A stretch of 62,165 nucleotides of DNA from positions 1-62,165 of IMG/VR virus record IMGVR_UViG_3300002307_000058; one strand, given 5' to 3'. Shown here piece by piece: positions 4,283 to 52,025 of this stretch (the stretch's first letter is position 1; each line of letters begins with the position of its first letter). The notes under the pieces are model-generated. The model was given only the letters and a program-made list of their open reading frames with translations. It made no database searches and was not told the origin of the DNA. The position numbers and the translations under genes were made by a program. The stretch is from a virus (taxonomy: Duplodnaviria; Caudoviricetes).

Positions 4283-5582
4283 TCACATTCTCTCGACCCT
4301 GTCTGGCGTCGAGCGCCGCCTGTCGCGATTGGAGAAGGCCAAGGGCCTTGACCCTGCATCGAAGCTAGACCGGGCTCTGCGCATTGCTGACAGCCTTGAT
4401 CAGCGCCTTAACCGCCTGACCAGAACCCAGCGCCTGCGGTTCGCGGACGCCGACTTCCGGGAAGAGGACCACCCGCGCGCGGCCAATGGCCAGTTTGGGT
4501 CTGGCGGAGGTGGTGCGTCCAAGAGCGAGACCAAGGACAAACCCAAGGCGTCTGCCAACTCCGACGTGGGCATTGGCGTTTCGACCGTGATCGACGGCAA
4601 GAAGGTCTCCGGGGAGGTCGTCGACTCCACCGCCGACACGGCCACGATTCGGACCTCTGACGGCAAGACCCACACGGCCCCATGGAAACAGGTCTCCGGC
4701 GGCTACCACCGGGGAAGCGACTACATTCCCGCAGCCCAGTTCGACGCCGCCTCGTTCGCAAAGAGCCATGACAGGCAAGACGTGACCCCTGCCCAGATCC
4801 TCAGTCATTTCCCGTCCGACACTGAGGCCAAGATGGGCGAGACCATCGCCAAGCTGGACAAGATCAAGCCGACCAACGAGCGATACAAGGACGCCGCCGG
4901 GAACTACACCCCGGAACGTCAGGCGCTCCACAACAAGATCCTGCTGGAGGGGATCACCGCCGAGGTGATGAACGAGGACACGGGCAAGAAGGAGAAGCGG
5001 TTCTTCCCCGGCATCCTTTCCCCCGAGGCCGTCGAGCGGGCGCGCCCGAAGGACGGCGAAAAGCCACGGTTCACGATCCTTGGCGGGCGGGGCGGATCCG
5101 GCAAGTCGTGGTTCACGAAGTCCGGCATGGTCGACAGTGAGACGAATCTTGTCCTCGACGCCGATCACATCAAGAGCCTCCTTCCGGAATATGACGGCTG
5201 GAACGCAGCCGAGGTCCACGAGGAGTCGTCTGACATCTTCGAGATGATCACCGAGTTCGCCCACGCACAGGGCCTGAACCTCGTCCACGACGCCACGATG
5301 AAGACGCCGGAGAAGGCGGTCAAGCTGGCGAAGAAGTTCAAGGACTCGGGCTACACCCTCGAATCCCACTACATGCACCTGCCGCGAGACGAAGCGGCCA
5401 AGCGGGCCGTGGGGCGCTATCTGGGGCCGACGAACCGGCTGGTTCCGCCGGAGATCGTCTTGTCCAACACCCAGAACGAAAAGGCCTTCGACGAGGTCCG
5501 CAAGCTGGCGGACAAGTGGTCGTTCCGCGACAACAACGTCCAGAAGGGCAGGCCCCCGCGCCTGATCTCCGAGTCCGAATAG
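4272..5582 (+). CDS. Zeta-toxin-like P-loop kinase with N-terminal coiled-coil repeats and EEDHPR..NGQFG motif
   Basis: GGRGGSGKS Walker A, LDADHIK, HEESS, VHDAT, RAVGR...R.VP motifs typical of Zeta/PezT family. Confidence 0.8.
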   Translation: MKVDHILSTLSGVERRLSRLEKAKGLDPASKLDRALRIADSLDQRLNRLTRTQRLRFADADFREEDHPRAANGQFGSGGGGASKSETKDKPKASANSDVGIGVSTVIDGKKVSGEVVDSTADTATIRTSDGKTHTAPWKQVSGGYHRGSDYIPAAQFDAASFAKSHDRQDVTPAQILSHFPSDTEAKMGETIAKLDKIKPTNERYKDAAGNYTPERQALHNKILLEGITAEVMNEDTGKKEKRFFPGILSPEAVERARPKDGEKPRFTILGGRGGSGKSWFTKSGMVDSETNLVLDADHIKSLLPEYDGWNAAEVHEESSDIFEMITEFAHAQGLNLVHDATMKTPEKAVKLAKKFKDSGYTLESHYMHLPRDEAAKRAVGRYLGPTNRLVPPEIVLSNTQNEKAFDEVRKLADKWSFRDNNVQKGRPPRLISESE

Positions 5583-5583
5583 C

Positions 5584-5616
5584 AAAAAGGGAGGCCTAGG
5601 CCTCCCCTTCCTTTTT
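5584..5616. terminator. Bidirectional intrinsic terminator
   Basis: Perfect palindrome GGGAGGCCTAGGCCTCCC (5589-5606) flanked by A5 and T5 tracts between convergent genes. Confidence 0.75.
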
Positions 5617-5769
5617 GGCCTTGTCGGCCCGTTTCGACGCAAACGCCTGTTTCAGCGATTCCGGCCAGCCGTCCGGGGGCGTCCAGTTATCGGAGGGCGG
5701 GGACACGCAGTCCATGTCCTCCATCAGCGCCGGGTTGCTGGAGCCCGGCCACTTCTTGTCTTCCGCCAT
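5596..5769 (-). CDS. Small hypothetical protein (57 aa)
   Basis: GAGGGAG RBS before ATG 5769; last gene of the minus-strand island. Confidence 0.6.
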   Translation of the reverse strand: MAEDKKWPGSSNPALMEDMDCVSPPSDNWTPPDGWPESLKQAFASKRADKAKKEGEA

Positions 5770-5782
5770 GGGCGGGTCTCCC

Positions 5783-5974
5783 TCAAGTTTCGGGTGGCGA
5801 ATTGTCCTCCTTTTGGCTGGCGGCTTCAAGCCCCATGGCAAGAAGAGCGTGGATCTTGTCGACTCGCGTCGCGGGCCCCGGCCAAGCGTCGAGCTTGGCG
5901 AGGATCTCGGGACGGAAGCGCACGAGGATGGGCTTCCAGTTGGTCTTGGGTCTGGCCACGGGTTTAGTCTCCAT
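5783..5974 (-). CDS. Ribbon-helix-helix DNA-binding protein
   Basis: PILVRF strand, then PEILAKLDAW and TRVDKIHALLAMGL helices. Confidence 0.65.
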   Translation of the reverse strand: METKPVARPKTNWKPILVRFRPEILAKLDAWPGPATRVDKIHALLAMGLEAASQKEDNSPPET

Positions 5975-8662: not shown

Positions 8663-8863
8663 ATGACAAGCCGGGAGGATTTCACTTCCGCCGAAGCGGC
8701 CATGCAGGAATTTCTCCTGACGCTGGACCAGTTCCACAAATGCTGCGCGGCGGGCTATTGGTCGCTGGCGCAAGAGATGTCACTCGTGGCCTCGGCCCGG
8801 CTGGAATCGCATCTCGATCTGTTTCTCTCGGGCGCTCGAAAGGTGATCAGCGATGGCGAATGA
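8663..8863 (+). CDS. Hypothetical protein (66 aa)
   Basis: ORF overlapping the start of the MuF gene. Confidence 0.45.
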   Translation: MTSREDFTSAEAAMQEFLLTLDQFHKCCAAGYWSLAQEMSLVASARLESHLDLFLSGARKVISDGE

Positions 8864-10637
8864 ATCTTTCTACGACGTGATCACGCAGGCCATCGCCGAC
8901 TTCGCCAAGCACGGCTACGATAGCGCCGAGCGCATGGCCTATTGGCAGGAGCGGATCCGGCAGGCGGCGGAACGGTCCATGACCCCAGCTTGGCGGATGG
9001 AGGAGCAACTGCGGGCGTCCATGGGCGCGATCTACAAGCGCATGGTCGAGAACGCGGGAGCCCTGCGTTATCATCCGGGCGTGAGCCGGTTCACCCTCGA
9101 CAGCTTGCGCCCCCGGCTGCACGACGAGCTTCGCCGCCGGATCCTCGCCAGCGCCGACCTGATCCGGCTCAATCGGTCGCAGGCCATTGAGAAGACCCTG
9201 CAACGGTTCAGCGGCTGGGCTTCGTCCGTCCCGACCGGCGGGTCAAAGACCATCGACCGGGTCGACGAAAAGAAGACCCTGCGCAAGGCCCTCACGCAGC
9301 TCCCCTTTGAGGAGCGCCGAGTTTTGGTGGATCAGGGGACGAAATTGGTCGCCTCCATAAACCAAGTCATTGCGAGTGATGGAGGGGCTATTGCCGTAAA
9401 ATGGAACAGCCATTGGCGCGAGATCAACTACAACTATCGGGAAGACCACAAGGAGCGCGACGGCCAGATCTACCTGATCCGGGGATCGTGGGCGTCCAAG
9501 GGAGGCTTGGTCCAGCAGGGCGAGGCAGGCTACTACGACGAGGTCACGGCTGTCGCCGAGGAGCCCTTTTGCTTCCCCGGAGACTCAGAGATCCCATTCG
9601 CGGACGGTATAGAAGCCGCGTTTCGTCGTTGGTATGTCGGCGACTTGGTTGAGATGGTCACGTCGTCTGGAAACCGGCTTAAGGGAACACCGAACCACCC
9701 AGTCCTTACGTCGAAGGGTTGGGTCGCGCTGGGTTGTCTCAAGGAAGGCGACAACGTTGTCGAGATTTGCGAGAAAATGGGCCTCGGTCTTGAGCGTGAC
9801 AATCACGGAACAAAAGCCCGAATCTCGGACGTGTTTGCGGCGGTCGGGCGTGCTGGGTTTGCTGAAAAAAGAAGCGGCGGCAGTCACCAGTTCCACGGCG
9901 ATGGATCTGAACGCGACGTCGATGTTGTAAGGGCCGCACGGCCATTGACCTTCGACAGCATGACCCCGCGCCCGAAGCGCCTCGATCAAGGCCAGTTCTC
10001 CTTGACCAACTTGCGTAGATCTGCGGGACGCGCGTTTGATTTTTGTCTCCATGGAGTTGTGCGTTCCGCGCAGGGCGTCGTGAGCGGCTTGGGTCAGCTT
10101 CTTTCGCCCCTGCTCGCCCTCTCTCGCCATCCGAATCAAATTTGCCTCGCTGCGCCCTCGTTGCACCAGCCCGCCCTCTTTGATGGCGCGCACAACCACG
10201 GCGCGGGAGACGTCAAAGTCTCTGGCGATCTGGAGCACGCTTCGCCCTTCCGAGTGCAACCGGCAAACCTCCGCCGGGGGCAAGTCGATTCGGTTGTGGG
10301 CGGATCTCGGGACTGTGTCGAGCGAGACCTTCTGACTGTAAATCCGGCCCCAGAGCGTGCGAGGATTGACGCCCATGATTTTGGCGATCTTTTCGACGGA
10401 AAGCCCTTCTCCACGCAGCTTGGAAAGGTGGTCGAGGTCGAGCGGAACCATTGGTCTGGGCATGTCTACAATCTCCAAACGGAAGCTGGTTGGTATGTAA
10501 CACAAAATATCATTACGCACAATTGCAGATGTTTCGCCACCTACATATACCACTTGCGCCAGCTTCCCCCTGACATGCTGACCAAAAAGGGCCAGCTTCA
10601 ACTCGAAGAGGCTCGGCGCAAGATTGCGGCGCTTTGA
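8853..10637 (+). CDS. MuF/SPP1 gp7-like head morphogenesis protein containing an intein
   Basis: YREDHKERDG motif; splicing restores EPF-CRC, the MuF Cys motif; 276 aa after splicing. Confidence 0.85.
   Translation: MANESFYDVITQAIADFAKHGYDSAERMAYWQERIRQAAERSMTPAWRMEEQLRASMGAIYKRMVENAGALRYHPGVSRFTLDSLRPRLHDELRRRILASADLIRLNRSQAIEKTLQRFSGWASSVPTGGSKTIDRVDEKKTLRKALTQLPFEERRVLVDQGTKLVASINQVIASDGGAIAVKWNSHWREINYNYREDHKERDGQIYLIRGSWASKGGLVQQGEAGYYDEVTAVAEEPFCFPGDSEIPFADGIEAAFRRWYVGDLVEMVTSSGNRLKGTPNHPVLTSKGWVALGCLKEGDNVVEICEKMGLGLERDNHGTKARISDVFAAVGRAGFAEKRSGGSHQFHGDGSERDVDVVRAARPLTFDSMTPRPKRLDQGQFSLTNLRRSAGRAFDFCLHGVVRSAQGVVSGLGQLLSPLLALSRHPNQICLAAPSLHQPALFDGAHNHGAGDVKVSGDLEHASPFRVQPANLRRGQVDSVVGGSRDCVERDLLTVNPAPERARIDAHDFGDLFDGKPFSTQLGKVVEVERNHWSGHVYNLQTEAGWYVTQNIITHNCRCFATYIYHLRQLPPDMLTKKGQLQLEEARRKIAAL
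9570..10523 (+). mobile_element. Intein (318 aa) in MuF
   Basis: Block A CFPGDSEI, block B GTPNHPVLT..GW, block F VYNLQT, block G ITHN/C. Confidence 0.92.
9585..10463 (-). CDS. HTH-HTH-DUF559/Vsr-like endonuclease encoded antisense inside the MuF intein
   Basis: GGAG RBS before ATG 10463; two HTHs (GLSVEKIAKIMGV, GRSVLQIARDFDVS); GELALIEAL...G..VEGQ...GPYNIDVA..IAVE. Confidence 0.75.
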   Translation of the reverse strand: MPRPMVPLDLDHLSKLRGEGLSVEKIAKIMGVNPRTLWGRIYSQKVSLDTVPRSAHNRIDLPPAEVCRLHSEGRSVLQIARDFDVSRAVVVRAIKEGGLVQRGRSEANLIRMAREGEQGRKKLTQAAHDALRGTHNSMETKIKRASRRSTQVGQGELALIEALRARGHAVEGQWPCGPYNIDVAFRSIAVELVTAAASFFSKPSTPDRRKHVRDSGFCSVIVTLKTEAHFLANLDNVVAFLETTQRDPTLRRKDWVVRCSLKPVSRRRDHLNQVADIPTTKRGFYTVREWDL

Positions 10638-33649: not shown

Positions 33650-34029
33650 AAAAGTCAGAAATTTTTCTCATCGGGCTGGTCTGCGTGGTCGGCCTCGCGG
33701 GCGCAGCCAAGGCGGCGAGCCTCGTCACCATTGCGAGCACACCGTCCTCGGACGGTTCGGCAAGCATCACGTTCAGCGGGTCCGCCGTCCAGTTGTTCGG
33801 CGGCGCTGTCCCTCTGACCGGATACAAGGTGGCCCTGACCTCAGCGACACAATCCTCCACGCCCTGCTGGGTGAGCGATTCCACGTCGACGCCGTCCGCC
33901 ACGACGACCGGCTCTTATCCGGTCTTCTTTCAGGGACAATACTCGACCGAGGTCGGAGAAAAGCCCATCGGTCCAGTCTACATCTGGTGTCCTGCCGGGA
34001 CCGTCATTGTCTCCGCGAAGAAGTGGTGA
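33646..34029 (+). CDS. Small beta protein with Sec-type signal peptide
   Basis: MKK + hydrophobic core + AKA site. Confidence 0.6.
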   Translation: MKKSEIFLIGLVCVVGLAGAAKAASLVTIASTPSSDGSASITFSGSAVQLFGGAVPLTGYKVALTSATQSSTPCWVSDSTSTPSATTTGSYPVFFQGQYSTEVGEKPIGPVYIWCPAGTVIVSAKKW

Positions 34030-34034
34030 GCGCC

Positions 34035-35783
34035 ATGTTTCGTAAATTCATCGCGGCGCTGGCCGCTTGCCTGATCGCAGCGCCTGCTTTTGCGGGGGCG
34101 GTAAATCCACCGACCATAGTTCCAACGCTCCGCAACGCGATTCAAAGCCTTGCGGCCAACGCGGCTGCTGGAAACCTTCTGACCAATCCCATCAGCGCAT
34201 CGGCTGCAACCATCACGTCCCCCGGATCTGCCGCATCGACGACCGGCCTTACTGACTTGCTTCCGGGGACCAATGGTTTTGGCGGGACGATCACCGGAAC
34301 GACAGTGGCAGGAAGTAGCGTTGTCACATCGACGTCGGCAGTATCTGGCGGGGCCACATCAACTTGGCAGGTCGGAGGCTATCTGGCCGAAACGGGGACA
34401 AATGATGCTTATCCAACACACGTGACGCCGGGCTCACAGATCGTTTCCGTAAACGCTGGCGCGAACACTCTTACTATGTCGAAGCCAGCTTTGCTGTCAG
34501 GATCGGCGGTGCCGATTGGATATTTCCCCGCGAGCATCAAGATTGTCGGGGGTTATGCGGGGAATTATGGTTCGACGTTTTCGCCTGCATCGGGAACGCG
34601 CACCAGCGCCTCCCCTGCCCAGTCATACGTTCCGTTCGCTTTAGAATTTATGACTGACGCGGCGAATTTCTCGACCGCTACGCCTGCAATTGTCATGACG
34701 ATTGTCGGAAATCAGACCCCATTGGCGTATCGGGTTGCCGTCGACGACGTATATCAGACGGCCAATTATGTTTTGATCAACACTGGATCAAACCAGATCA
34801 CAATTCAGTTCGCTACGGCTGGTGTTCACAAGGTCAGGATTGAGCAAACCGCAGGCGTTCGCGTATCCCATCTCTATTTGACGACCAATGCCAAGATTTG
34901 GCAACCGCCAAAAAATGGATATTCGGTCAATGCCGCTATGTTTGCCGATAGCTTCTTTAATTCTGGATATACAGGCTCGTGGGGGATGCATAACATCGCA
35001 AACCAAGTCTGCATTCTTTTAGGCTGGAATTGTTTTGCCCCAGCAGTGAACGGCACGGGCTATATTGCCACGGGCGGAACAAGTTATGCTTGGACGGATG
35101 CGCGCCGCATTGCCGACATAACGCGGATTCCACCTGACGTTATAGTGCTGTTTGGGAGCGTTAACGACAGTGGTCAGACTTCTAACGCGGAACAAACTGC
35201 CGCCGCGTCGGTTTACAGTCAGATTCGAGCGATTTATCCAACCATCCCAATCTTTGTTTTTGGCGTGCCAAATACCAAAACCGTCAGCACGTCGGCGGCG
35301 ACTTTGGAGACCGGGATTGCGGCGGCTGTAGCGGCAAGCCAGGCAGCGGGCGACAACAATATTTGGTTTTTCCCGATTACCAACGACCCGGCTGGCGCTT
35401 GGATTACAAAAGATGTCACCACGGATTTTGCTGGCGGTGGATACACAAGCTATTGTGCAGCCAGCTCTGCGACAATTTCCGGCGCCACCCTGACCATTAA
35501 CACCATGACTACAGGGACCGTGTTGCCCTATTCGACTGTAACCCTAACAGGGGGCGCGACCGGAGTAGTGCAGCCCTACGGCACATCGTCTACGACGGGA
35601 ACAGGCCAAACCGGCACTTATGCGCTCACGGGAAATTCGGGTTCAGGCACGGCGGTTGCGACCACGGCGTGTGGAGACAGCACGCATCCGGCTGACAATT
35701 TCGGCAACGCAAACGGACCCGAGTATTACGCCAAGAGAATGAAGGCGTTGATTCTCAGTGTCGTGAGCAGCCTAGACCAGTGA
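34035..35783 (+). CDS. SGNH/GDSL esterase-domain protein with signal peptide
   Basis: FADS, NGTGY, GSVND, DSTHP blocks; MFRKFIAALAACLIAAPAFA leader; lower GC. Confidence 0.75.
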   Translation: MFRKFIAALAACLIAAPAFAGAVNPPTIVPTLRNAIQSLAANAAAGNLLTNPISASAATITSPGSAASTTGLTDLLPGTNGFGGTITGTTVAGSSVVTSTSAVSGGATSTWQVGGYLAETGTNDAYPTHVTPGSQIVSVNAGANTLTMSKPALLSGSAVPIGYFPASIKIVGGYAGNYGSTFSPASGTRTSASPAQSYVPFALEFMTDAANFSTATPAIVMTIVGNQTPLAYRVAVDDVYQTANYVLINTGSNQITIQFATAGVHKVRIEQTAGVRVSHLYLTTNAKIWQPPKNGYSVNAAMFADSFFNSGYTGSWGMHNIANQVCILLGWNCFAPAVNGTGYIATGGTSYAWTDARRIADITRIPPDVIVLFGSVNDSGQTSNAEQTAAASVYSQIRAIYPTIPIFVFGVPNTKTVSTSAATLETGIAAAVAASQAAGDNNIWFFPITNDPAGAWITKDVTTDFAGGGYTSYCAASSATISGATLTINTMTTGTVLPYSTVTLTGGATGVVQPYGTSSTTGTGQTGTYALTGNSGSGTAVATTACGDSTHPADNFGNANGPEYYAKRMKALILSVVSSLDQ

Positions 35784-45034: not shown

Positions 45035-47365
45035 TTACACAATCCAATCTTTGTAGCCGTCCGCCGTGATCGCCGTGGCCATGTTCATCTTGGCCCGGAG
45101 CGCGGAGATCATTTTCTCCTCAACCGTGTCCCGGACGATCAGGTCCACATAGGCCACCGGGTCGACCTTGCCGACCGCCTGCGGGCGCTCCTCGGACTGG
45201 AGGCGGTGCTCTAGGTCGGCGCTGTTGCTGTAATAGACCACGAGGCTGGAATTGGTCCACGTCCGCCCGCGCCCACCAGCGGCGGCGGTTGCGACCATGA
45301 ACCGGCACGAGGGAAGCTGAAGAAAGTTTTTTTCTTCAGCTTCCCTCGTCTTGGTATTCCCACCCCAGAACCGGGCCACGGACCCTTCGCCGTAACGCTT
45401 CTCAAGCGCCGCCGCGACCTTGGCGATGTCGTGACCGTAGGAGCACCAGATGATGGCCTTGCCGTCGAACTCCTCCAGCAGGTCGAGGAGCGCCGACGTC
45501 CGATTCTCCGCGATCTCGTGAAACGTGCCATCCTCGTCCATGGTGTGGCCGCACAGGATCTGGTGCAGGCGGATGATCTGGGCGATCACGATGCTTGCGG
45601 TGACGTGCTCCCCGGAAGCGAGTTGCGTAGTCGCAAACTGTTTCATCTCGGCGTAAAGCCGCTTCTGTTCCGGGGTCATCTCGACTTCCCGGAAGCTGTA
45701 ACTCTTGGGCGGCAAGTCGTAGCAGTCGGACAGCAGGACCCGGCTGCTATGGTCGAGGATCCGCCGGGACAGGTCGTCCAGATCGCGATAGCCCTTGACG
45801 ACCGGGACCGAGCGACCGCCGACAATCAGGTTGTGCATGATCGCGTAGCGCGCCCGGAACGAATAGTAGGACCGATGGCCGAGGATCCGCCAATCAAGGA
45901 ACTCGAACTGGCCGTAAAGATCCAACGGATCCTTGGGCGTGGGCAGGCCGGACAGAATCCGGCGATAGTTGGCCAAGGGCTTCAGCTTGCCGTTGATGAA
46001 CTTGGTCCGCTGTGACGAGGGATTCTTGATGATGGTGCAGTTGTGGACAAGGACGCCTCCAGCAAAAAAATGAGGAGTTCCGTCGAGTTCAAGGTTGAAG
46101 AAAGCTCTAGGGCTTTCGAATTCGACAATCTCACAATCTTCCACCCAAACTCCGCAATCTTCTGTTCTTTCTTCTGGGCAAGTGCTTTCGCCTTGAAGCT
46201 GTTGTGGCTGGATCCGTCGCACTCCACTGCCAGTTTCAAGTTTGGATTTCCAAGGTCCACTTTGTAGCAAGTGGGATAGCCGGGAAGCCTCTTCCCCAAC
46301 GCGATTGCAAATTCCGGGATCCATTCCGGGCCAAGAACCGCAAGCAAATTTGCTTGCGGTTTCGTAAGCGGCCTCCCATTCCCTCCGATAACGCTGAACC
46401 TGTGGTTCATGGCTTTGAGAGTTGCGCTCAATTTCGCAGCAGACTCCGGTCGCATAGGAATCCCTTTGTTCCAAGAAGGAGCTCCCAGTCGTTTCCCTTT
46501 TCGTCCCAAAGACATCTTTTTGGAGCGTTGATCCGTGTAAATTTTCTCCCGAATTTCGGGCTGTTGCATCCGCCATTTCGCTGAACAAGATGTGCTGCAA
46601 AATCTTCTGTTTCGCCTTGCTCGCGCCGAAAATTCGATTTCGCAAATCTGACATTTCACGGTCACAAACATATTTGCCCTTCAAGTTCGAAGCAGACACC
46701 CATCCTTCAGAAGTAAAAAATGGATGGTCTGGCGTCGTCTTGATGATTGTGCCATTAGATAGCTTCAAAAAGCAACTCTTAACGGAGGTGTTGACCAAAA
46801 TCCGCTTTATTTTTACGGGACCGAAAGAGCCGACGACCTTTTGTCCCGGCTCAAGAAGAAAAATAGGAACCGGTCCATCTGGCGTTAGAATCTCTGTGTC
46901 GGGAGAAAAACACTCGTCCACGGCCAGATAGTTTTTGTCCGCCGCCAGAAAGTCCAGCATGGCTGTCTGCGCCGCCTTGACGCTGGAGAGCGCCTCGACG
47001 TTCATGAGGAGCGCCACAGGAGGCCCGGCGGGGTCCTTGGCCGCGTCCATGAGCGCCTGAAAGCGCCGCATGTCCTTGGCCCCCATGCCGGACTGCCAGA
47101 CGGCGATCAGCAGGCGGCTTTTGAGGTCTGCTGACAGGTGCTCTTCCAGAGCGCCCTTCCACGTCTTGTAGACGCCGCCGGGCGCGATCAGGCCGAAGTT
47201 ACGAACCTTGCCCGCCAGTTCCAGACGCCCGTAGTCGTCAATCGTGGTCTTGGTCTTGCCCGTCCGCATCTGCATCAGGTAGGCAAACGCTTCGGCCCCG
47301 TCCGATTTGTCGAGGGCCTCCTGCTGGTGTGCGAACGGCTTGAACGCCGGGGTGTAGACGCTCAC
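45035..47365 (-). CDS. SNF2-family helicase containing an intein
   Basis: MRTGKT, DE/CT Walker B split by intein, LSGLP, GGRGRT, QSEER; GTGA-coupled start 47365. Confidence 0.9.
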   Translation of the reverse strand: MSVYTPAFKPFAHQQEALDKSDGAEAFAYLMQMRTGKTKTTIDDYGRLELAGKVRNFGLIAPGGVYKTWKGALEEHLSADLKSRLLIAVWQSGMGAKDMRRFQALMDAAKDPAGPPVALLMNVEALSSVKAAQTAMLDFLAADKNYLAVDECFSPDTEILTPDGPVPIFLLEPGQKVVGSFGPVKIKRILVNTSVKSCFLKLSNGTIIKTTPDHPFFTSEGWVSASNLKGKYVCDREMSDLRNRIFGASKAKQKILQHILFSEMADATARNSGENLHGSTLQKDVFGTKRETTGSSFLEQRDSYATGVCCEIERNSQSHEPQVQRYRREWEAAYETASKFACGSWPGMDPGICNRVGEEASRLSHLLQSGPWKSKLETGSGVRRIQPQQLQGESTCPEERTEDCGVWVEDCEIVEFESPRAFFNLELDGTPHFFAGGVLVHNCTIIKNPSSQRTKFINGKLKPLANYRRILSGLPTPKDPLDLYGQFEFLDWRILGHRSYYSFRARYAIMHNLIVGGRSVPVVKGYRDLDDLSRRILDHSSRVLLSDCYDLPPKSYSFREVEMTPEQKRLYAEMKQFATTQLASGEHVTASIVIAQIIRLHQILCGHTMDEDGTFHEIAENRTSALLDLLEEFDGKAIIWCSYGHDIAKVAAALEKRYGEGSVARFWGGNTKTREAEEKNFLQLPSCRFMVATAAAGGRGRTWTNSSLVVYYSNSADLEHRLQSEERPQAVGKVDPVAYVDLIVRDTVEEKMISALRAKMNMATAITADGYKDWIV
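45982..46671 (-). CDS. Zn-finger/NUMOD/DUF559-Vsr-like endonuclease overprinted in +1 frame of the helicase intein
   Basis: CQIC..EF....NRRFCS..C, PSWNKG, YKVDLG....KLAVECDGSSH...K......GWKIVR; GAAGGG RBS. Confidence 0.8.
   Translation of the reverse strand: MFVTVKCQICEIEFSARARRNRRFCSTSCSAKWRMQQPEIREKIYTDQRSKKMSLGRKGKRLGAPSWNKGIPMRPESAAKLSATLKAMNHRFSVIGGNGRPLTKPQANLLAVLGPEWIPEFAIALGKRLPGYPTCYKVDLGNPNLKLAVECDGSSHNSFKAKALAQKKEQKIAEFGWKIVRLSNSKALELSSTLNSTELLIFLLEASLSTTAPSSRIPRHSGPSSSTAS
46040..46912 (-). mobile_element. Intein (291 aa) in helicase Walker B
   Basis: CFSPDTEILT, TTPDHPFFT..GW, FNLEL....HFFAGGVLVHN/C; low GC. Confidence 0.93.
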
Positions 47366-47616
47366 GGCTTGGGGACCAGCCAGACTTCCATGGGATGCGG
47401 GCCGCGCAGTTCGGTCCGCATGAGCCGCTGGCCATGGCCCATGGCCTCCAGCTTGCGGGACAGGGACTTCAGCCGACCGACCAGAATGGGTTTGGCGTTG
47501 AACGGCTGGTCGTCGCCGTAGATCTTGGGCAGCAGGTCGCGGGAAGAGATCTTGGATCCATCCGTTGGGATGACATCCAGAAGCTCCTGTTCCTTGGGCG
47601 AAAGCTGAATGGCCAT
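47362..47616 (-). CDS. Small winged-helix-like protein
   Basis: GAGGA RBS; LSPKEQELL start. Confidence 0.6.
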   Translation of the reverse strand: MAIQLSPKEQELLDVIPTDGSKISSRDLLPKIYGDDQPFNAKPILVGRLKSLSRKLEAMGHGQRLMRTELRGPHPMEVWLVPKP

Positions 47617-47655: not shown

Positions 47656-48075
47656 TCAGGAGAGCAACAGAGCCCGGATTTCGGACCAGTTCCACTTGAC
47701 GGGCGGTCCGGGCCAGTAGCCGAGGCGATTCTGGCTTCGGAGGCCATGGACCAGAAGGTTCCGGGCCTCCGAGCCCGGATAGAGCCACAGCGCGTCGCTT
47801 GCAGGCCCCTTGCGCGGTCCGGCGGTGGTCTGGTGGCGGACGGCGACGAAGACCCGCCCGCCGTGCCGCAGGCGGGATTCAATCCATCCGACCTGCGGGC
47901 CGGACAAACCCACGGCCATGGTCGATGTCTTTTTAAACTCGACCCAGCCTTCGACGCCGTCCCCGGCGAAGTTAGAGTCCGGGATCCCCAAGCCGGTCCC
48001 GCCGGTCTCGACGGCTTGCCAGTGCAGGCCCTTGAGGTTCTTGTGGAACAGGACGCGCAGCCCGCCGTCGATCAC
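47656..48075 (-). CDS. PD-(D/E)xK nuclease, VRR-NUC/Holliday resolvase-like
   Basis: GIPD....WVEFK...LSGPQVGW. Confidence 0.8.
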   Translation of the reverse strand: MIDGGLRVLFHKNLKGLHWQAVETGGTGLGIPDSNFAGDGVEGWVEFKKTSTMAVGLSGPQVGWIESRLRHGGRVFVAVRHQTTAGPRKGPASDALWLYPGSEARNLLVHGLRSQNRLGYWPGPPVKWNWSEIRALLLS

Positions 48076-50129
48076 TTGTAGTCCCCCAGATATCGGATCG
48101 CCTCGACCTTGATCATGCGGAAACCCTCGGGGCAGGTCCCCTTGATCGCAAACAGACTCTTGCCAGCCTTGGCCACTTCGAGGACCTTGGGCGAAAGCCG
48201 TTCAAAGGCGTAGCGGTCGATCTTGGCGAAGACCTCGTCCGTGTCATCGACGAGAAACAGGTTCAGGCTCTTGTCCGGGCCAAACACCGGCTTGCCCTTG
48301 CGCTTTTCCAGTTCAGCCGGGGTGTTCTCGTTTTTGATGTTCATCCGCTTCAAGAGGCCAATAAACACGAACGCGCCCCGGATCCCCGGCTGGATCTGGA
48401 TCCCCGGCGTCGGGTCCGAGATGATGTTGATCGCCCGCAGGTCCGGATGGAGCCGGGAGACCGCGTCCCGAATCGGGTCGAGGGTGTCGATTTCGGTCGT
48501 GGCGCGGGCCAGTTGCTTCTGGAGGCCGGGGCTCAACTCTCCGCCCTCGCGCCGCTCCTTCAGGATCTGCGACACCTTGGCCGGGCCAATGCCCTTGATG
48601 GCGGTCAGGGGGCCGACGAGAGATCCGTCCGTGGCGATCTCCCAGCGCGCCGTCGAGACATGCGGGAGGAAGGGGGCATAAGAGACCCCCTCCTCCCTCA
48701 GTTCCCGGAGCAACAGGATCTGCTTCGAGGCGTCGTTTTCGGCGTCAAGGGTGGCGGCGGCGAAAGCCAAAGGATGGTAGGCCTTGAACCAACAACACCA
48801 GTAGCTGATGATGGCGTAAGCGACCGCGTGGCTCTTGTTGAACGCATAGCCGCCCATGGTCTTGATCTGGTTCCAGACGCGCGCGGCCTCTTCAGGATGA
48901 AGCCCCGAAGAAGCCGCACCCTGAGCGAAGTCCTTGGAGAATTTCTCCAAGGCCTCCGCCCCCTGACTCTTGCCCATGATCTTGCGAACTGCGCTGGTGT
49001 CCTCCCACGAAAACCCGCCGACCTCCCGGACCATCTGCATGACGGTCTCCTGATAGGCGATCAGGCCGTAGGTCCCCGCCGTGATCCGGTCCACCGCCGG
49101 GTGGATCTCCTCGACCCGCTCCTTGCCGTTATGACGGCGCACCCATTGCTCCGCCACGCCGGAGGCCATAGGGCCGGGCCGGGCGAGCGCGGTCAGGGCG
49201 ACAACATCTTCGATCCGCGAGAAGTGGACCTGCGACGCCAGACGCCGCAAGGCTGCGCCCGCGAACTGGAACACGCCGGAGAACTTCTTGGCGTTGAGAA
49301 CGTCGAACACCTTGGGGTCGTCCAGAGGCAAAGCCTCCAGAAACGCCGACCTCGGCTCAACGCCGATCAGTTCCATGGCGCGCTCGAATATGGAAAGCTG
49401 GGTCAGGCCGAGGGCGTCAATCTTGAGCAGATTGAGACTCTCGGCGTCCTTCTTGTCGCACCACGCGGCCTTGGTCCGTGTGCTGACGGCCACGTATTCC
49501 GAGATCGGATCCTGCGTCAGCAGGAGTCCGGCTGCGTGCTGGCTGGCCACGTTCGGGTGGCCCTCGATCCGGGCGGCGACGGCCATGTTGGGGAACCGCT
49601 CAATGAACTTCTTCCCCGGCCCGGTGTCGGCGAACGTGTCCTCCAGACACTTGAGTGCGCGGGCATCGCCTGCGTCGCGCTCTATAGCCACGTCGGCCAG
49701 CTTTTCCGTCTCCCACGACGGCACGCCAAGGACCGCGCCCGCTTGCTTCAGGGCGGACCGCGTCTTGAGCATTCCGACCGTTCCCAACCGGGCGACGTGG
49801 TCGGAGCCGTATTTCTGCTCGGCGTAGGCAAAGACCAGATCCCGCTTGGCGTCGGAAAAATCCACGTCGATGTCGGGCAGGTCAGTGTCCATCCAGACGG
49901 GCGGCTTTGACGTCGGCTTTTCGTTCGTGATTCCCAGCACATAACCCAACGCAGAATTGTTGGGGTTAGGGAAAACTCGACCCGCAAAAGCATGTTCCAA
50001 AAACGTCTTGGAAACACTTTCCGACGAAAGAGCGGCAAAAAGTTCGGGCTTGAAATGGTCTTCTCCGACTTCCTTGATTTTTGCAGAATCAAACGAAAAG
50101 GCCCTCAAACGTTCAGAATAGGATTCCAT
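48072..50129 (-). CDS. dnaE: DNA polymerase III alpha-like, C-terminal fragment (palm/thumb/fingers/OB)
   Basis: PDIDVDF, HAAG, KIDALGL, GVFQF, YQE, YAFNKSHAVAY, IKGIG. Confidence 0.92.
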   Translation of the reverse strand: MESYSERLRAFSFDSAKIKEVGEDHFKPELFAALSSESVSKTFLEHAFAGRVFPNPNNSALGYVLGITNEKPTSKPPVWMDTDLPDIDVDFSDAKRDLVFAYAEQKYGSDHVARLGTVGMLKTRSALKQAGAVLGVPSWETEKLADVAIERDAGDARALKCLEDTFADTGPGKKFIERFPNMAVAARIEGHPNVASQHAAGLLLTQDPISEYVAVSTRTKAAWCDKKDAESLNLLKIDALGLTQLSIFERAMELIGVEPRSAFLEALPLDDPKVFDVLNAKKFSGVFQFAGAALRRLASQVHFSRIEDVVALTALARPGPMASGVAEQWVRRHNGKERVEEIHPAVDRITAGTYGLIAYQETVMQMVREVGGFSWEDTSAVRKIMGKSQGAEALEKFSKDFAQGAASSGLHPEEAARVWNQIKTMGGYAFNKSHAVAYAIISYWCCWFKAYHPLAFAAATLDAENDASKQILLLRELREEGVSYAPFLPHVSTARWEIATDGSLVGPLTAIKGIGPAKVSQILKERREGGELSPGLQKQLARATTEIDTLDPIRDAVSRLHPDLRAINIISDPTPGIQIQPGIRGAFVFIGLLKRMNIKNENTPAELEKRKGKPVFGPDKSLNLFLVDDTDEVFAKIDRYAFERLSPKVLEVAKAGKSLFAIKGTCPEGFRMIKVEAIRYLGDYK

Positions 50130-50959
50130 AGCTCTTTCCCTATGACGATGATTTTCTCCTCGGGGAACTCCGTCCGAAAAAGTTCAAATTTTTCTTTTGC
50201 TTGGGGATACCAATAGCCTTTGATCTCAATCAGCAGGTTCAGTTCTGGAAGAAAGAAATCCGGCAAATATCTTTTTCAATTAGACAGCTTGAATTTTCTC
50301 TTTTCATAAGTCCAAGCGATTCCTTTCTCGTCTAGGGCCTTGGCAAACGCCAGTTCCCAAGAGGAACGCATCAAGATTCCGTTGTGAAACCCTCCGATTC
50401 CTCTTCCGTGTCTGATCGGCTTTCTGTCGTCAAAAGCACCCTTTCGCCACGTCTCCTTGAGCTTGTCGTTTCCAAAGTTCGGGTTGTTGGTCCCGGACCA
50501 GCGCCCATCGGAATAGAGCCTCTTCATGTGAATTGCGGCGCAAGGACGCCCGCAAAACCTCCTGTTCTTTTTCTTTGGGGCCTTGAACTCCGCCCCGCAC
50601 CCCTCACAAATGTTCACATGGGCTAGTCCTGTGTTCCAAGAAGGACGTCCTCTCATTTTTGAGGCGTGGGCTTCAATCGATTCTAAAGAACGCGTCTTTC
50701 CTTTCCAATAGGGGGCTATTTCCCCCAAAGAATGACGCAGCTTCATTCTCTCTGATTGAGACTTGGTTTTTTCTGAATTCGCGTTTGCTCGAATTCTTCC
50801 ATCGAACTTTACGCCGGTCCTTGCCAATGCTCTTTGGACCGACATTTGGGAAACCCCCAAAAACTCAGAAACTGCCCTTTGCGAGCCGTGCTTTTTCATC
50901 AGGTCGAAAAGTTCCTCCTTAGAGAGTTTCACTTTGATCGGGTGCCGGAAACGGGCCAT
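50105..50959 (-). pseudogene. HTH/NUMOD/Zn-finger PD-(D/E)xK homing endonuclease with one in-frame TGA (50276-50278)
   Basis: RSSWE....LD..GI.W.YE then, after TGA in the same frame, KRYLPDFFLPELNLLIEIKGYW; AAGGA RBS before ATG 50959; low GC. Confidence 0.8.
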
Positions 50960-52025
50960 AATCTTTAAATTCCTTGTTGTATCTGTATCCTCCTCGATTG
51001 ATATCAATAAATCGTTCAAAAATCAAACCGTAGGGGACGGGGTCGACCGCCGTGATCCCGAGGAGGTAGCAGACCAGAGATCCGCAGGAGGATCCGCGCG
51101 CCGGGCCGACGACCATGACGGTCTTGGCGTAGGCGATCAGGTCGGCCAGAATGTAGAAATAGTCCTCGAACTCCTTCTCGTGGATTACTTCCAGTTCGCG
51201 AGCAAGGCGCTGGGCGTAGATCTCTGAACTGAGGTCTACGCCCAGCTTCTCCGCGCCCGCCCGGCACAGATCCAGAAGGCTGGTCGTCTTGTCTACGTTC
51301 GGAAGCCGCGCCTGCTGCATCTGGACGACGCAACGGTCCATGACCCGGTCGCGGTTGTGGAAAGCCTCGGAGACCGTGCCCTCTGAAAGAGACAGGGTCT
51401 CCGAAAGCCAAAGCCGAAGCTCTTCATCGTCCACGATGTGGCGCGGGTAGGTCTGGGTTCCTGACCGAAACGATCCCAGTGTTACACGATAGAACTCCAG
51501 ATCGTCCGGGGACGGGTAGTAGTTGTCCCCGGTAGCGAGAAGGGGGACCTTTCTTTTTATGGCTCTGCGGGCCTGTCCGACCGAGGTTGACGGAGAGAGA
51601 CCCAGATACACATGATTGGGGATAGCCCCCTCCGGAAGCATGTCTAGCTGCGCTCTTTCTGCCATGATCGCCACGACGCCCTTGGCGTTCCAGACGTTGG
51701 CGTAGGTGAGCATGGGCTCCCGCTCATTGGCGTCGGTGGCGTCGCGGATCAGGTCGTGGAGGTCCGACAGGCGGTCGGTGGCGAAAAACGTCCAGTAGTC
51801 GACCGGGGGCTTCTTGTCCCCAAGGCGCGGGACGACGGCCAGTTCAACGCCGAAAATAGGCCGCAAGCCTCGCTTGGCGCAAGCCTTGGTCCAGCGGGTG
51901 AAACCGAACGTGGACACCCGGTCAGAGATCGGGGCCACTCCCCAGCCCAGAGCCTCGACCCGGTCGAGGACGTCGTCGAGGTGGCCAACTGCGGCGTGAA
52001 AACTGTAGCCTGTCCGGATTCGCAC
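50919..52025 (-). CDS. dnaE: DNA polymerase III alpha-like, N-terminal fragment (PHP domain to FERF motif)
   Basis: RTGYSF, PIFGVEL, GPARGSSCGSLVCYLLGIT.VDP..YGLIFERF. Confidence 0.92.
   Translation of the reverse strand: MRIRTGYSFHAAVGHLDDVLDRVEALGWGVAPISDRVSTFGFTRWTKACAKRGLRPIFGVELAVVPRLGDKKPPVDYWTFFATDRLSDLHDLIRDATDANEREPMLTYANVWNAKGVVAIMAERAQLDMLPEGAIPNHVYLGLSPSTSVGQARRAIKRKVPLLATGDNYYPSPDDLEFYRVTLGSFRSGTQTYPRHIVDDEELRLWLSETLSLSEGTVSEAFHNRDRVMDRCVVQMQQARLPNVDKTTSLLDLCRAGAEKLGVDLSSEIYAQRLARELEVIHEKEFEDYFYILADLIAYAKTVMVVGPARGSSCGSLVCYLLGITAVDPVPYGLIFERFIDINRGGYRYNKEFKDYGPFPAPDQSETL

What the first reader, a model, noticed from the sequence alone, without database searches (positions are those of the whole stretch)
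45982..46912. Second intein with its endonuclease overprinted in the +1 frame
Seen: a 291-aa intein sits in the helicase Walker B (AVDE/CTIIKN). Right after the N-terminal splicing domain, an ATG (46671, GAAGGG RBS) opens a 229-aa ORF in the +1 frame with a CxxC..FCxxxC finger, PSWNKG and a clear YKVD...LAVECDG..H DUF559/Vsr-like motif. It runs 58 nt past the intein end. The intein-frame translation of the same bases looks like filler but must stay open for the helicase. Inference: two independent cases in one genome suggest an overlooked class of inteins with out-of-frame endonucleases, which standard annotation would call degenerate inteins. It may be a snapshot of how endonucleases invade mini-inteins.
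Basis: partly seen in the sequence, partly recalled or inferred. Interest (0 to 1): 0.9.

Follow-up and report, generated by a model that had tools for sequence, protein, structure and literature searches.

The report
Helicase intein hiding a frame-shifted endonuclease gene
A self-splicing protein insert (intein) in a phage helicase carries, in a second reading frame of the same DNA strand, an intact-looking gene for a DNA-cutting "homing" enzyme, and the same two-frames-in-one layout recurs in over a hundred phage sequences where annotation shows only the helicase.

Summary
A 291-aa class-1 intein (46040-46912, minus strand) splits the Walker B motif (AVDE|C...HN|CTIIKN) of an SNF2-type helicase. 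A 229-aa ORF (45982-46671) lies in the +1 frame.

The ORF encodes a zinc finger plus a Vsr/DUF559/EDxHD-type nuclease. It folds with confidence (pLDDT 84). The same bases read in the intein frame give a disordered loop (pLDDT below 50).

This is not a one-off. Of 125 related loci, 119 have the nuclease gene nested at exactly +1 inside an intein at the Walker B "DE" of a P-loop NTPase. These hosts are DEAH/ResIII and SNF2 helicases, clamp loaders and terminases. Three loci have it in frame, one free-standing, two have a broken host frame, and none has it at +2.

The host frame has no stops where synonymous shuffles expect about 9. Codon periodicity switches to the nuclease frame inside the overlap. 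Most copies have their own ATG and Shine-Dalgarno.

Assembly indels are excluded. The "snapshot of invasion" reading is not supported, because this is a stable, old architecture.

Out-of-frame intein endonucleases were reported in 2025 for other nuclease types, so this is a new variant. The window's own copy lacks a conserved catalytic Asp (A165) and may be inactive.

The parts
45035..47365 (-). SNF2-family helicase gene (776-aa precursor including the intein). N-extein is 46913-47365 and C-extein is 45035-46039.
   Evidence: Pfam SNF2-rel_dom and Helicase_C; PHROG 62 DNA helicase at E 5.7e-74. The spliced junction AVDE+CTIIKNPSSQRTKFIN matches the intein-less orthologue P0002, AIDESTIIKNPSSQRTKFIN.
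46040..46912 (-). Class-1 intein, 291 aa, inserted directly after the Walker B DE. It has C1, TPDH (block B), a terminal HN, and Cys at +1.
   Evidence: In A3, C1 and N291 are invariant, and H63 and H290 are nearly invariant.
46628..46912 (-). N-terminal splicing (Hint) domain, about residues 1-95.
   Evidence: AF2 pLDDT is 96-98 for residues 1-80. Codon periodicity follows the helicase frame.
46184..46570 (-). Intein-frame 'filler' (residues 115-243): a predicted disordered loop, kept free of stops.
   Evidence: AF2 pLDDT is below 50 with no secondary structure. There are 0 stops against about 11.5 expected.
46040..46165 (-). C-terminal splicing domain (residues 250-291).
   Evidence: AF2 pLDDT is 85-98. 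It matches the C-domain HMM built here.
45982..46671 (-). +1-frame ORF, 229 aa: a putative homing endonuclease made of a zinc finger, a NUMOD3-like PSWNKG motif, a GGNG motif and a Vsr/DUF559/EDxHD nuclease.
46677..46682 (-). Shine-Dalgarno-like GAAGGG, 5 nt upstream of the ATG at 46669-46671. It lies within codons of the N-terminal splicing domain.
   Evidence: The role is inferred, not shown.
46585..46653 (-). CxxC...FCxxxC zinc finger (residues 7-29 of the +1 protein).
   Evidence: C7, C10, C25 and C29 are conserved in 33-35 of 35 sequences. There are weak FCS/MYM finger hits.
46102..46275 (-). Nuclease core (residues 133-190): YKVD, ECDGSSH, K168, GW, R181.
   Evidence: D139, E150, D152, G153, H156, K168, G176, W177 and R181 are invariant in 35 of 35. 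The profile hits 3HRL at E 2.7e-11 and 3R3P at E 0.0054.
46177..46179 (-). Codon GCC = Ala165, where 34 of 35 relatives have Asp. This position aligns with D222 of I-Bth0305I.
45982..46039 (-). 58-nt tail of the +1 ORF that overlaps the first codons of the C-extein.
   Evidence: In most relatives the stop lies 8-65 nt before the intein end.

Best explanation
This is a composite mobile element.

**The intein.** A class-1 mini-intein sits directly after the Walker B Asp-Glu of a phage SNF2-type helicase. It is translated as part of the helicase and removes itself by protein splicing. Its two Hint half-domains are joined by a loop of about 130-160 residues that is intrinsically disordered. The only detectable constraint on this loop is that it contains no stop codon.

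**The +1 gene.** The DNA of that loop, read one base further on, encodes a separate protein. It has an N-terminal zinc finger and NUMOD-like DNA-binding region, and a C-terminal Vsr/DUF559/EDxHD-type nuclease.

**Expression (inferred).** This protein is made by independent internal initiation at its own ATG with a Shine-Dalgarno sequence. Both signals lie within the last codons of the N-terminal splicing domain.

**Function (inferred).** By analogy with I-Bth0305I, it cuts intein-less alleles near the Walker B coding sequence. Recombinational repair then copies the intein and nuclease gene together.

**Family.** The element belongs to an old family that keeps the nuclease gene at exactly +1 and has moved between P-loop NTPase genes.

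**What is shown:** the anatomy, dual openness, selection on the +1 protein sequence, the fold predictions, the conservation, and the patchy distribution.

**What is inferred:** splicing, internal initiation, cleavage and homing.

**Caveat.** The window's copy has Ala at a conserved metal-binding Asp, so its nuclease may be inactive.
For: **Architecture**
- Coordinates, frames and motifs.
- In the two DNA-level scans plus three GenBank phages, 119 of 125 loci have the nuclease ORF nested at +1 inside a long ORF. Both intein half-domains flank it, always at ...DE|C...HN|C/S.
- This is 93 of 98 clusters at 90% identity. None is at +2.

**Both frames under constraint**
- 41 of 41 loci have 0 stops in the host frame. 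Synonymous shuffles expect a mean of 9.3, and P(0) is at most 0.014 for each locus. The third frame holds 4-28 stops.

**Which frame codes protein**
Frame-agnostic nucleotide alignments of 47 pairs give these mismatch fractions at host codon positions 1/2/3:

| Region | pos 1 | pos 2 | pos 3 |
|---|---|---|---|
| N-domain | 0.31 | 0.23 | 0.57 |
| C-domain | 0.27 | 0.19 | 0.37 |
| Overlap | 0.52 | 0.31 | 0.29 |

In the overlap the wobble position is that of the +1 frame.

**Folds**
- The +1 protein has pLDDT 83.8.
- The intein-frame loop has pLDDT below 50, between Hint halves above 90.

**Nuclease family**
- Pfam DUF559 is above its cut-off.
- The profile hits 3HRL at E 2.7e-11 and 3R3P at E 0.0054.
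- Foldseek gives 3r3p_A probability 0.99, TM 0.62 on the target.

**Internal start**
- Most loci have an ATG a few codons before the first CxxC, with GAGGT or AAGG 5-8 nt upstream.
- In L034 and L038 the ATG directly follows a +1-frame stop.

**Mobility**
- Among the 119 best non-self helicase orthologues, 112 have intein-less length. The nearest is 72% identical.
- Four carry this intein and three carry a different one at Walker A. Only 9 sequences were read; the rest were judged by length.
- The intein is 13 GC points below its exteins.

**Related states**
- A free-standing homologue lies next to an intein-less terminase-like gene (L030).
- In-frame versions occur in UvrD inteins.
Against: - No expression, splicing or cleavage data exist. 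No RNA run holds the sequence.
- The window's copy has A165 where 34 of 35 aligned relatives have Asp. This position aligns with I-Bth0305I D222, whose D222A mutant was made as an inactivated construct. Of 125 sequences, 122 keep the motif; WIN, L064 and L129 do not.
- The window's ORF has also lost the usual stop and runs 58 nt into the extein.
- Foldseek E-values are weak (0.026).
- Retrieval used conserved nuclease peptides as patterns. Invariance of YKxD, ExDGxxH and GGNG is therefore partly by construction, and decayed copies would be missed.
- The sequence pairs are not phylogenetically independent.
- No significant RNA structure lies around the start (z -1.2), and no promoter-like site was found on the gene's strand.
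- The host-frame loop shows only a slight compositional shift beyond stop avoidance: 67.9% against 65.8% disorder-prone residues, and none in the window itself.
Confidence: 0.8

Rival explanations
1. Assembly or sequencing indels. The true intein would have the nuclease in frame, and two compensating errors create the apparent +1 ORF.
For: Three relatives (L045, L047, L048) do carry the DUF559 domain in frame inside an intein, so an in-frame form exists.
Against: - The helicase frame is stop-free through the whole overlap, where about 11.5 stops are expected.
- The same +1 arrangement occurs in 119 loci from independent assemblies, including three finished GenBank phage genomes.
- Contigs of three runs are identical, with no gaps.
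Confidence: 0.01
2. Dead relic in this phage. The intein still splices, but the +1 ORF is a recently inactivated endonuclease gene that no longer promotes homing. It stays open only because too little time has passed for stops to accumulate.
For: - A165 replaces the Asp that aligns with I-Bth0305I D222.
- The nearest relative L064 has His there and shares the 58-nt read-through. L065 keeps Asp.
- The usual stop has been lost.
Against: - The ORF is intact over 229 codons, and all other invariant residues are present.
- The fold prediction is confident.
- The large GC deficit suggests a fairly recent arrival.
- A neighbouring Glu169 might compensate; this was not tested.
- This rival concerns only this copy, not the family.
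Confidence: 0.3
3. Recoding. The nuclease is made by a programmed +1 ribosomal frameshift from the helicase/intein frame. This would give a fusion of N-extein, N-intein and nuclease rather than a separate protein.
For: - The phase is always +1.
- In some clades the +1 frame is open for up to about 60 codons upstream of the first CxxC (L015-L022).
Against: - In L034 and L038 a +1-frame stop directly precedes the ATG. In L029, L037 and L042 it lies one codon before it. This leaves no room for a shift.
- Most loci have an ATG with a Shine-Dalgarno sequence.
- No conserved slippery site was looked for or seen.
- An in-frame intein-nuclease would need a second shift back.
Confidence: 0.04
4. The +1 protein is a real nuclease but has been domesticated for another job. 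Examples are degrading host or rival-phage DNA, or excluding co-infecting phages. It would not be homing the intein.
For: - DUF559/Vsr-like domains occur in many non-homing contexts. The best PDB hit, 3HRL, is a bacterial protein of unknown role.
- No cleavage site is known.
Against: - The protein is strictly linked to inteins at one site type.
- Its clades track the extein family: 8 changes against a shuffled mean of 21.6.
- A free-standing homologue sits beside the same target gene (L030).
- The intein is patchily distributed among close orthologues.
- All of these fit homing.
Confidence: 0.08

Closest known systems
Non-canonical actinobacteriophage inteins with endonucleases outside the intein frame (Gosselin, Arsenault & Gogarten, bioRxiv 10.1101/2025.01.02.630785; abstract and sections 8 and 15 read, passages searched)
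   Same: - The intein splicing domain stays in the host frame.
- The endonuclease is encoded in another frame or strand of the central region.
- Free-standing endonuclease genes invading inteins are the proposed origin.
   Different: - Their same-strand case is an endonuclease VII-like enzyme in 'frame 3'.
- Their VSR-like (EDxHD) cases are antisense.
- Their hosts are DNA polymerase, minor capsid, terminase and thymidylate synthase of actinophages (63 of 784 inteins).
- Here the case is a same-strand +1 Vsr/EDxHD enzyme with a zinc finger. It sits at the Walker B DE of helicases, clamp loaders and terminases, mostly in phages of Gram-negative hosts and in metagenomes, with a strictly conserved phase.
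- Their supplementary tables could not be opened and might list further cases.
Fractured genes: split inteins with a free-standing Vsr-like or GIY-YIG endonuclease gene between the halves (Dassa et al. 2009, PMC2677866; abstract and passages read)
   Same: - The same nuclease family sits at the same place, between the intein half-domains.
- It occurs in phage DNA-metabolism genes, including helicase, DnaE and terminase.
- There are short overlaps (6-69 bp) between the endonuclease 3' end and the downstream intein part.
   Different: - There the host frame is interrupted by a stop and a restart, and splicing is in trans.
- Here the host frame runs through the whole endonuclease gene, and the intein is contiguous.
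I-Bth0305I, prototype of the EDxHD homing endonucleases (Taylor et al. 2011, PMC3239194; abstract and passages read)
   Same: - It has a bipartite layout: an N-terminal DNA-binding region and a C-terminal Vsr-like nuclease.
- The conserved acidic, His and Asp residues align.
- The fold matches.
   Different: - I-Bth0305I is encoded in a group I intron of recA and binds DNA through NUMOD2/HTH repeats.
- Here the gene is overprinted on an intein and has a CxxC...CxxxC finger, a NUMOD3-like motif and a GGNG motif.
- The window's copy has Ala at the D222 position.
ShiLan-type hidden HNH endonuclease in a phage methylase (Arsenault et al. 2025, PMC11855218; abstract read)
   Same: An out-of-frame endonuclease ORF lies inside an insertion that stays open in the host frame.
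   Different: - That element has no intein splicing domains and carries an HNH nuclease.
- Its insert is thought to be tolerated as a loop in the mature protein.
Canonical inteins with an in-frame DUF559 domain (L045, L047, L048, found here)
   Same: The same nuclease domain sits in an intein at the DE| site of a P-loop NTPase (UvrD).
   Different: The nuclease is part of the intein polypeptide. On the quick tree this clade nests inside a +1-nested clade (SH-aLRT 95, long branch, unrooted).

Membership tests
Intein (class 1, Hint fold) | In-frame insertion in a conserved host motif, with extein continuity once it is removed. | tested here: met
   AVDE|...|CTIIKNPSSQRTKFIN compared with intein-less P0002, AIDESTIIKNPSSQRTKFIN.
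Intein (class 1, Hint fold) | Cys/Ser at position 1, block B TxxH, terminal His-Asn, and a nucleophile at +1. | tested here: met
   C1, TPDH, HN and C+1 are present. They are conserved across 33 aligned inteins.
Intein (class 1, Hint fold) | Hint fold and family model. | tested here: met
   PF14890 scores 37.0 bits against a cut-off of 35.8. AF2 gives pLDDT above 90 for both half-domains.
Intein (class 1, Hint fold) | Protein-splicing activity. | not testable with these tools
   Inferred only, from intact motifs and from the helicase being a conserved replication-module gene.
EDxHD / Vsr-like (DUF559) homing endonucleases | Vsr-like nuclease fold and family model. | tested here: met
   - DUF559 scores 22.7 bits against a cut-off of 20.6.
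- The profile hits 3HRL at 2.7e-11 and 3R3P at 0.0054.
- Foldseek gives 3r3p_A probability 0.99 with TM 0.62 on the target, but E is 0.026.
EDxHD / Vsr-like (DUF559) homing endonucleases | Composite catalytic motif E, D, H, D. | tested here: inconclusive
   - E150, D152 and H156 are present.
- The last Asp (position 165, which aligns with D222 of I-Bth0305I) is Ala in the window. It is Asp in 34 of 35 aligned relatives.
- The family as a whole meets the motif, in 122 of 125 sequences.
EDxHD / Vsr-like (DUF559) homing endonucleases | N-terminal modular DNA-binding region. | tested here: met
   There is a zinc finger and a NUMOD3-like PSWNKG/NPM motif. PHROG 1271 matches residues 3-75. The domain type differs from the NUMOD2/HTH of I-Bth0305I.
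EDxHD / Vsr-like (DUF559) homing endonucleases | Site-specific cleavage of the element-less allele, and homing. | not testable with these tools
   The only indirect evidence is the patchy intein distribution among orthologues.
Inteins with an endonuclease encoded outside the intein frame | The host frame is open through the endonuclease gene, and the endonuclease frame is open and under purifying selection. | tested here: met
   and for recurrence.
Fractured gene / split intein (Dassa type) | The host frame is interrupted, and the intein halves lie on separate ORFs. | tested here: not met
   A single uninterrupted 776-codon ORF spans the locus.

The most novel reading that the evidence does not exclude
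The +1 overprint is not a transitional accident. It is the ancestral and preferred state of a monophyletic, ancient mobile element: a Walker-B-targeting intein fused at the DNA level, but not the protein level, to an EDxHD nuclease gene.

Overprinting would itself be adaptive in three ways:
- It makes nuclease and intein genetically inseparable.
- It throttles nuclease translation under helicase-translating ribosomes.
- It lets the intein stay a fast-folding mini-intein.

The free-standing, in-frame and host-broken forms seen here would be derived offshoots. Together they give a natural series that makes the 'splicing first, endonuclease later' model of intein evolution directly testable.
Probability: 0.4. 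Interest if true: 0.8.

Novelty: new variant of a known kind. Interest (0 to 1): 0.65.

Why it matters
- **Annotation.** These elements are recorded as plain helicases or would be called degenerate mini-inteins. The nuclease gene is absent from all three GenBank records examined. The 5.8-billion-protein collection holds only 45 proteins at E 1e-5 or better. A DNA scan of one metagenome collection found 413 relatives.
- **Evolution.** One nuclease family is seen here in four states: free-standing, +1-nested, in-frame, and with a decayed host frame. Models of how inteins and homing endonucleases became associated can therefore be tested by phylogeny.
- **Dual coding.** This is a clean natural example of long (about 200 codons) same-strand overlap. 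One frame carries a folded enzyme and the other only needs to stay open and disordered.
- **Practical use.** The inteins tolerate a loop of 130-160 residues. The nucleases form a pool of site-specific enzymes aimed at Walker B coding sequences.

Tried and rejected
**Work that led nowhere or gave negative results**
- blastn of the helicase locus against phage genomes found no match.
- A single-protein scan of viral contigs gave only partial NUMOD-region hits, loci L004-L014, which were not used.
- Composition of the host-frame loop against synonymous shuffles showed only a slight shift: 67.9% against 65.8% disorder-prone residues, and 23.3% against 23.7% hydrophobic. Hydrophobic content was lower than the shuffle mean in 25 of 36 loci. 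The window itself showed nothing. I therefore do not claim tuning beyond stop avoidance.
- The RNA fold around the internal start gave z -1.21, so no claim is made.
- The promoter and terminator scan of 45800-47500 found one weak promoter-like site on the opposite strand and no terminator.
- No RNA holder was listed for the stretch. Run X4 covers only 45932-46640 at low depth; no meaning is attached to the uncovered part.
- hhalign of the antisense ORF of the other intein against the nuclease profile gave probability 0.3. It is therefore not called Vsr-like here.
- L056 and L057 were weak DUF559 hits of 54 and 43 residues. They were dropped from all counts as unrelated.
- L017 gave no C-domain HMM hit and L051 is cut by the contig end. 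Both were kept as +1-nested by the frame test but are without full junctions.
- The 2026 preprint on the cyanobacterial dnaX intein (10.64898/2026.09.14.751524) was seen only as a search listing. Two attempts to open it failed.
- Supplementary tables of the 2025 preprint are closed and may list further non-canonical inteins.
- Literature searches behind 'not reported': plus passage searches.


Full report
**What is in the window**

The window is a complete 62,165-bp IMG/VR phage record. On the minus strand an SNF2-type helicase gene (45035-47365, 776 codons) is interrupted by a 291-codon insert. The insert lies exactly between the Walker B AVDE and CTIIKN (46040-46912).

The insert has Cys1, TPDH, a terminal His-Asn and Cys at +1. 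It passes the Pfam intein model at 37.0 bits against a cut-off of 35.8. Removing it restores the sequence of intein-less orthologues: P0002 is 72% identical and reads AIDESTIIKNPSSQRTKFIN.

One base out of phase, an ATG at 46669-46671 opens a 229-codon ORF that ends at 45982. GAAGGG lies 5 nt upstream of the ATG. The ORF runs 58 nt past the intein end. It has a CxxC...FCxxxC finger, PSWNKG, GGNG and YKVD...ECDGSSH...GW..R. It matches DUF559 above the Pfam cut-off.

**Is it an artefact?**

No, for three reasons.
- The helicase frame has no stop through the overlap, although synonymous shuffles of the +1 ORF give a mean of 11.5 and none of 500 is stop-free.
- Contigs from three runs are identical over 45700-47200, with no gaps. 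These runs may be the source samples, and they are contigs, not reads. A fourth sample matches the part it covers.
- Most tellingly, the arrangement recurs elsewhere, as described next.

**Recurrence**

tblastn of the +1 protein against phage genomes found 38 records: 37 Vibrio phages and Pseudomonas phage MR14. All 30 listed hits lie under a gene annotated as a helicase, a P-loop NTPase or a 'coil containing protein'.

In the three records I opened (MR14, CP-T1 and Vibrio phage 1.088.O) the match starts at offset +1 from the annotated helicase CDS. That CDS is open throughout and carries an intein at DE|CFPAG...VVHN|CHH. No CDS is annotated for the nuclease.

DNA-level scans with alignments of the nuclease gave further loci:
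- 36 viral and 7 genome loci;
- 413 metagenome relatives, of which the best 80 were fetched.

Frame analysis of the first 46 loci gave this split:

| State | Loci |
|---|---|
| Nested at +1 | 40 |
| In frame (L045, L047, L048; UvrD inteins with DUF559 in the same ORF) | 3 |
| Free-standing (L030) | 1 |
| Weak unrelated hits, dropped | 2 |

Of the 80 metagenome loci, 78 are nested at +1 and 2 have an interrupted host frame.

Adding the window gives these totals:

| State | Loci (of 125) |
|---|---|
| Nested at +1 | 119 |
| In frame | 3 |
| Host frame broken | 2 |
| Free-standing | 1 |
| Nested at +2 | 0 |

This corresponds to 98 clusters at 90% identity, of which 93 are nested at +1. Some loci are the same contig found in two collections. 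Wherever junctions could be read, the insertion site is the Walker B DE of a P-loop NTPase. In the first set the hosts are 20 ResIII/DEAH helicases, 12 SNF2 helicases, 3 clamp-loader AAA+ proteins and 2 terminase-like proteins, plus the window's own SNF2 type.

**Which frame makes a protein?**

In 41 of 41 loci the host frame has 0 stops, against a mean expectation of 9.3. The third frame has 4-28.

Frame-agnostic nucleotide alignments of 47 pairs show that the fastest-changing codon position differs by region. In both splicing domains it is host position 3 (0.57 and 0.37). In the overlap it is host position 1 (0.52 against 0.31 and 0.29), which is position 3 of the +1 frame. Inside the overlap, selection therefore acts on the +1 protein. 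The helicase frame is merely kept open.

AlphaFold agrees. The +1 protein folds with mean pLDDT 83.8. In the intein frame, residues 115-243 are below 50 with no secondary structure, between Hint halves above 90. Beyond stop avoidance, the loop's composition is barely different from shuffles.

**What the +1 protein is**

A profile of 35 sequences hits the DUF559 structure 3HRL at E 2.7e-11 and the I-Bth0305I catalytic domain 3R3P at E 0.0054. Foldseek ranks 3r3p_A at probability 0.99 and TM 0.62 on the target, although E is only 0.026.

Invariant residues in 35 of 35 sequences are C29, GGNG, D139, E150, D152, G153, H156, K168, GW and R181. Part of this invariance is by construction, because several of these motifs served as search patterns.

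The alignment to 3R3P places position 165 opposite D222 of I-Bth0305I. That residue is a putative metal ligand, and its D222A mutant was built as an inactive construct (PMC3239194, passages). Thirty-four of 35 relatives have Asp there, but the window has Ala. Its nearest relative L064 has His, and L065 keeps Asp. The window's copy may therefore be catalytically impaired. It has also lost the usual stop: in most relatives the stop lies 8-65 nt before the intein end.

**How it is probably expressed**

Most loci have an ATG a few codons before the first CxxC, with GAGGT or AAGG 5-8 nt upstream. In several loci a +1-frame stop lies directly before that ATG or one codon before it. That rules out a frameshift from the helicase frame in those loci and points to internal initiation. 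I found no significant RNA structure or same-strand promoter.

**Mobility**

Among the 119 best non-self orthologues of the helicase, 112 have intein-less length. Four carry this intein with a recognisably similar loop, and three carry a different intein at the Walker A site. These are judged by length; 9 sequences were read.

The intein is 48.5% GC against 61.8% in its exteins. Across 102 loci, intein and extein GC correlate at r = 0.91, and the mean deficit in high-GC hosts is 7.5 points. This suggests a comparatively recent arrival here, which is an inference.

On a quick, unrooted nuclease tree:
- clades follow extein families (8 label changes; minimum 6; shuffled mean 21.6);
- the free-standing L030 groups with the terminase-intein nucleases (SH-aLRT 99);
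- L030 sits just upstream of an intein-less terminase-like gene whose Walker B matches the L031/L032 exteins;
- the in-frame UvrD clade nests within a +1 clade (SH-aLRT 95, long branch).

**Comparison with what is known**

Inteins whose endonuclease lies outside the intein frame were described for actinophages in 2025: antisense LAGLIDADG, antisense VSR-like, and same-strand endonuclease VII-like in 'frame 3' (10.1101/2025.01.02.630785; abstract and sections 8 and 15 read). According to that preprint, an antisense case in Synechocystis dnaX dates to 1998.

Dassa et al. 2009 (PMC2677866) described the same nuclease family as a free-standing gene between split-intein halves. A hidden out-of-frame HNH in a methylase insert without an intein is also known (PMC11855218, abstract read).

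My searches found no report of a same-strand +1 Vsr/EDxHD nuclease in contiguous Walker-B inteins. Supplements and one 2026 preprint could not be read. I therefore rate this a new variant of a known kind. It is notable for its abundance, its strict phase and its presence in well-known phages.

The genome's only other intein is in the MuF-like head protein (8853-10637). It carries an antisense 338-codon ORF with two HTH domains. Homologues of that ORF lie antisense to head-protein genes in Gordonia phage Vivi2 and Edwardsiella phage MSW-3.

The DnaE gene is split by an insert of about 800 bp carrying a nuclease-associated ORF. That insert has no Hint domain and about 9 in-frame stops.

Noticed in passing
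window 8853-10637 (+) and 9585-10601 (-): A second intein (EEPF|CFPGD...ITHN|CRC) sits in a MuF-like minor head protein. An antisense 338-aa ORF spans it and has two HTH domains (HTH_7, E 1.4e-8). Homologues in 125 phage records lie antisense to head or MuF genes in the two records opened (Gordonia phage Vivi2, Edwardsiella phage MSW-3). It resembles the antisense type reported in 2025. Its nuclease family was not established here (hhalign probability 0.3 against the +1 nuclease profile).
   Followed up: partly
window 48072-52025 (-), insert about 50130-50918: The DnaE polymerase gene is split at Pfam DNA_pol3_alpha position 98/99 into two same-frame ORFs (50919-52025 and 48072-50129), with about 9 stops between them. 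The insert carries a 247-aa ORF (50276-51019, +1 relative to DnaE) with HTH, NUMOD3 and a similar zinc finger, but no recognised nuclease domain and no Hint domain. The LGIT motif region appears in both halves. It looks like a gene fractured by a free-standing endonuclease gene, without an intein.
   Followed up: partly
L030:3462-4142 and 4129-5952: A free-standing homologue of the nuclease lies directly upstream of an intein-less terminase-like gene and overlaps it by 14 nt. The Walker B of that gene (KQKRVRLIGDE) matches the exteins of the intein-bearing L031 and L032.
   Followed up: partly
L143:2815-3654: The nuclease ORF is intact (280 aa), but the surrounding host frame is full of stops and the N-terminal splicing domain and exteins are unrecognisable. 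The endonuclease gene appears to have outlived its intein and host gene.
   Followed up: partly
P0009, P0010, P0030 (orthologues of the window helicase): A different intein of about 330 aa is inserted in the Walker A motif (MAMRC|VD...GN|TGKTK) of the same helicase family. Both nucleotide-binding motifs of this helicase are therefore intein targets.
   Followed up: no
window 34600-35200 (+), inside ORF 33987-35783: A low-GC island (about 48-50% against 61%) lies inside a tail-fibre-like or esterase-like ORF. It is not an intein and may be a swapped receptor-binding module.
   Followed up: no
L045:2175-4826, L047 and L048:2334-4820: UvrD-type helicases carry a contiguous intein at DE|C...HN|CQD with a DUF559 nuclease domain in frame (Pfam E 8.1e-9). 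According to the 2025 preprint, VSR-like nucleases had been reported in inteins only in split or antisense form.
   Followed up: partly
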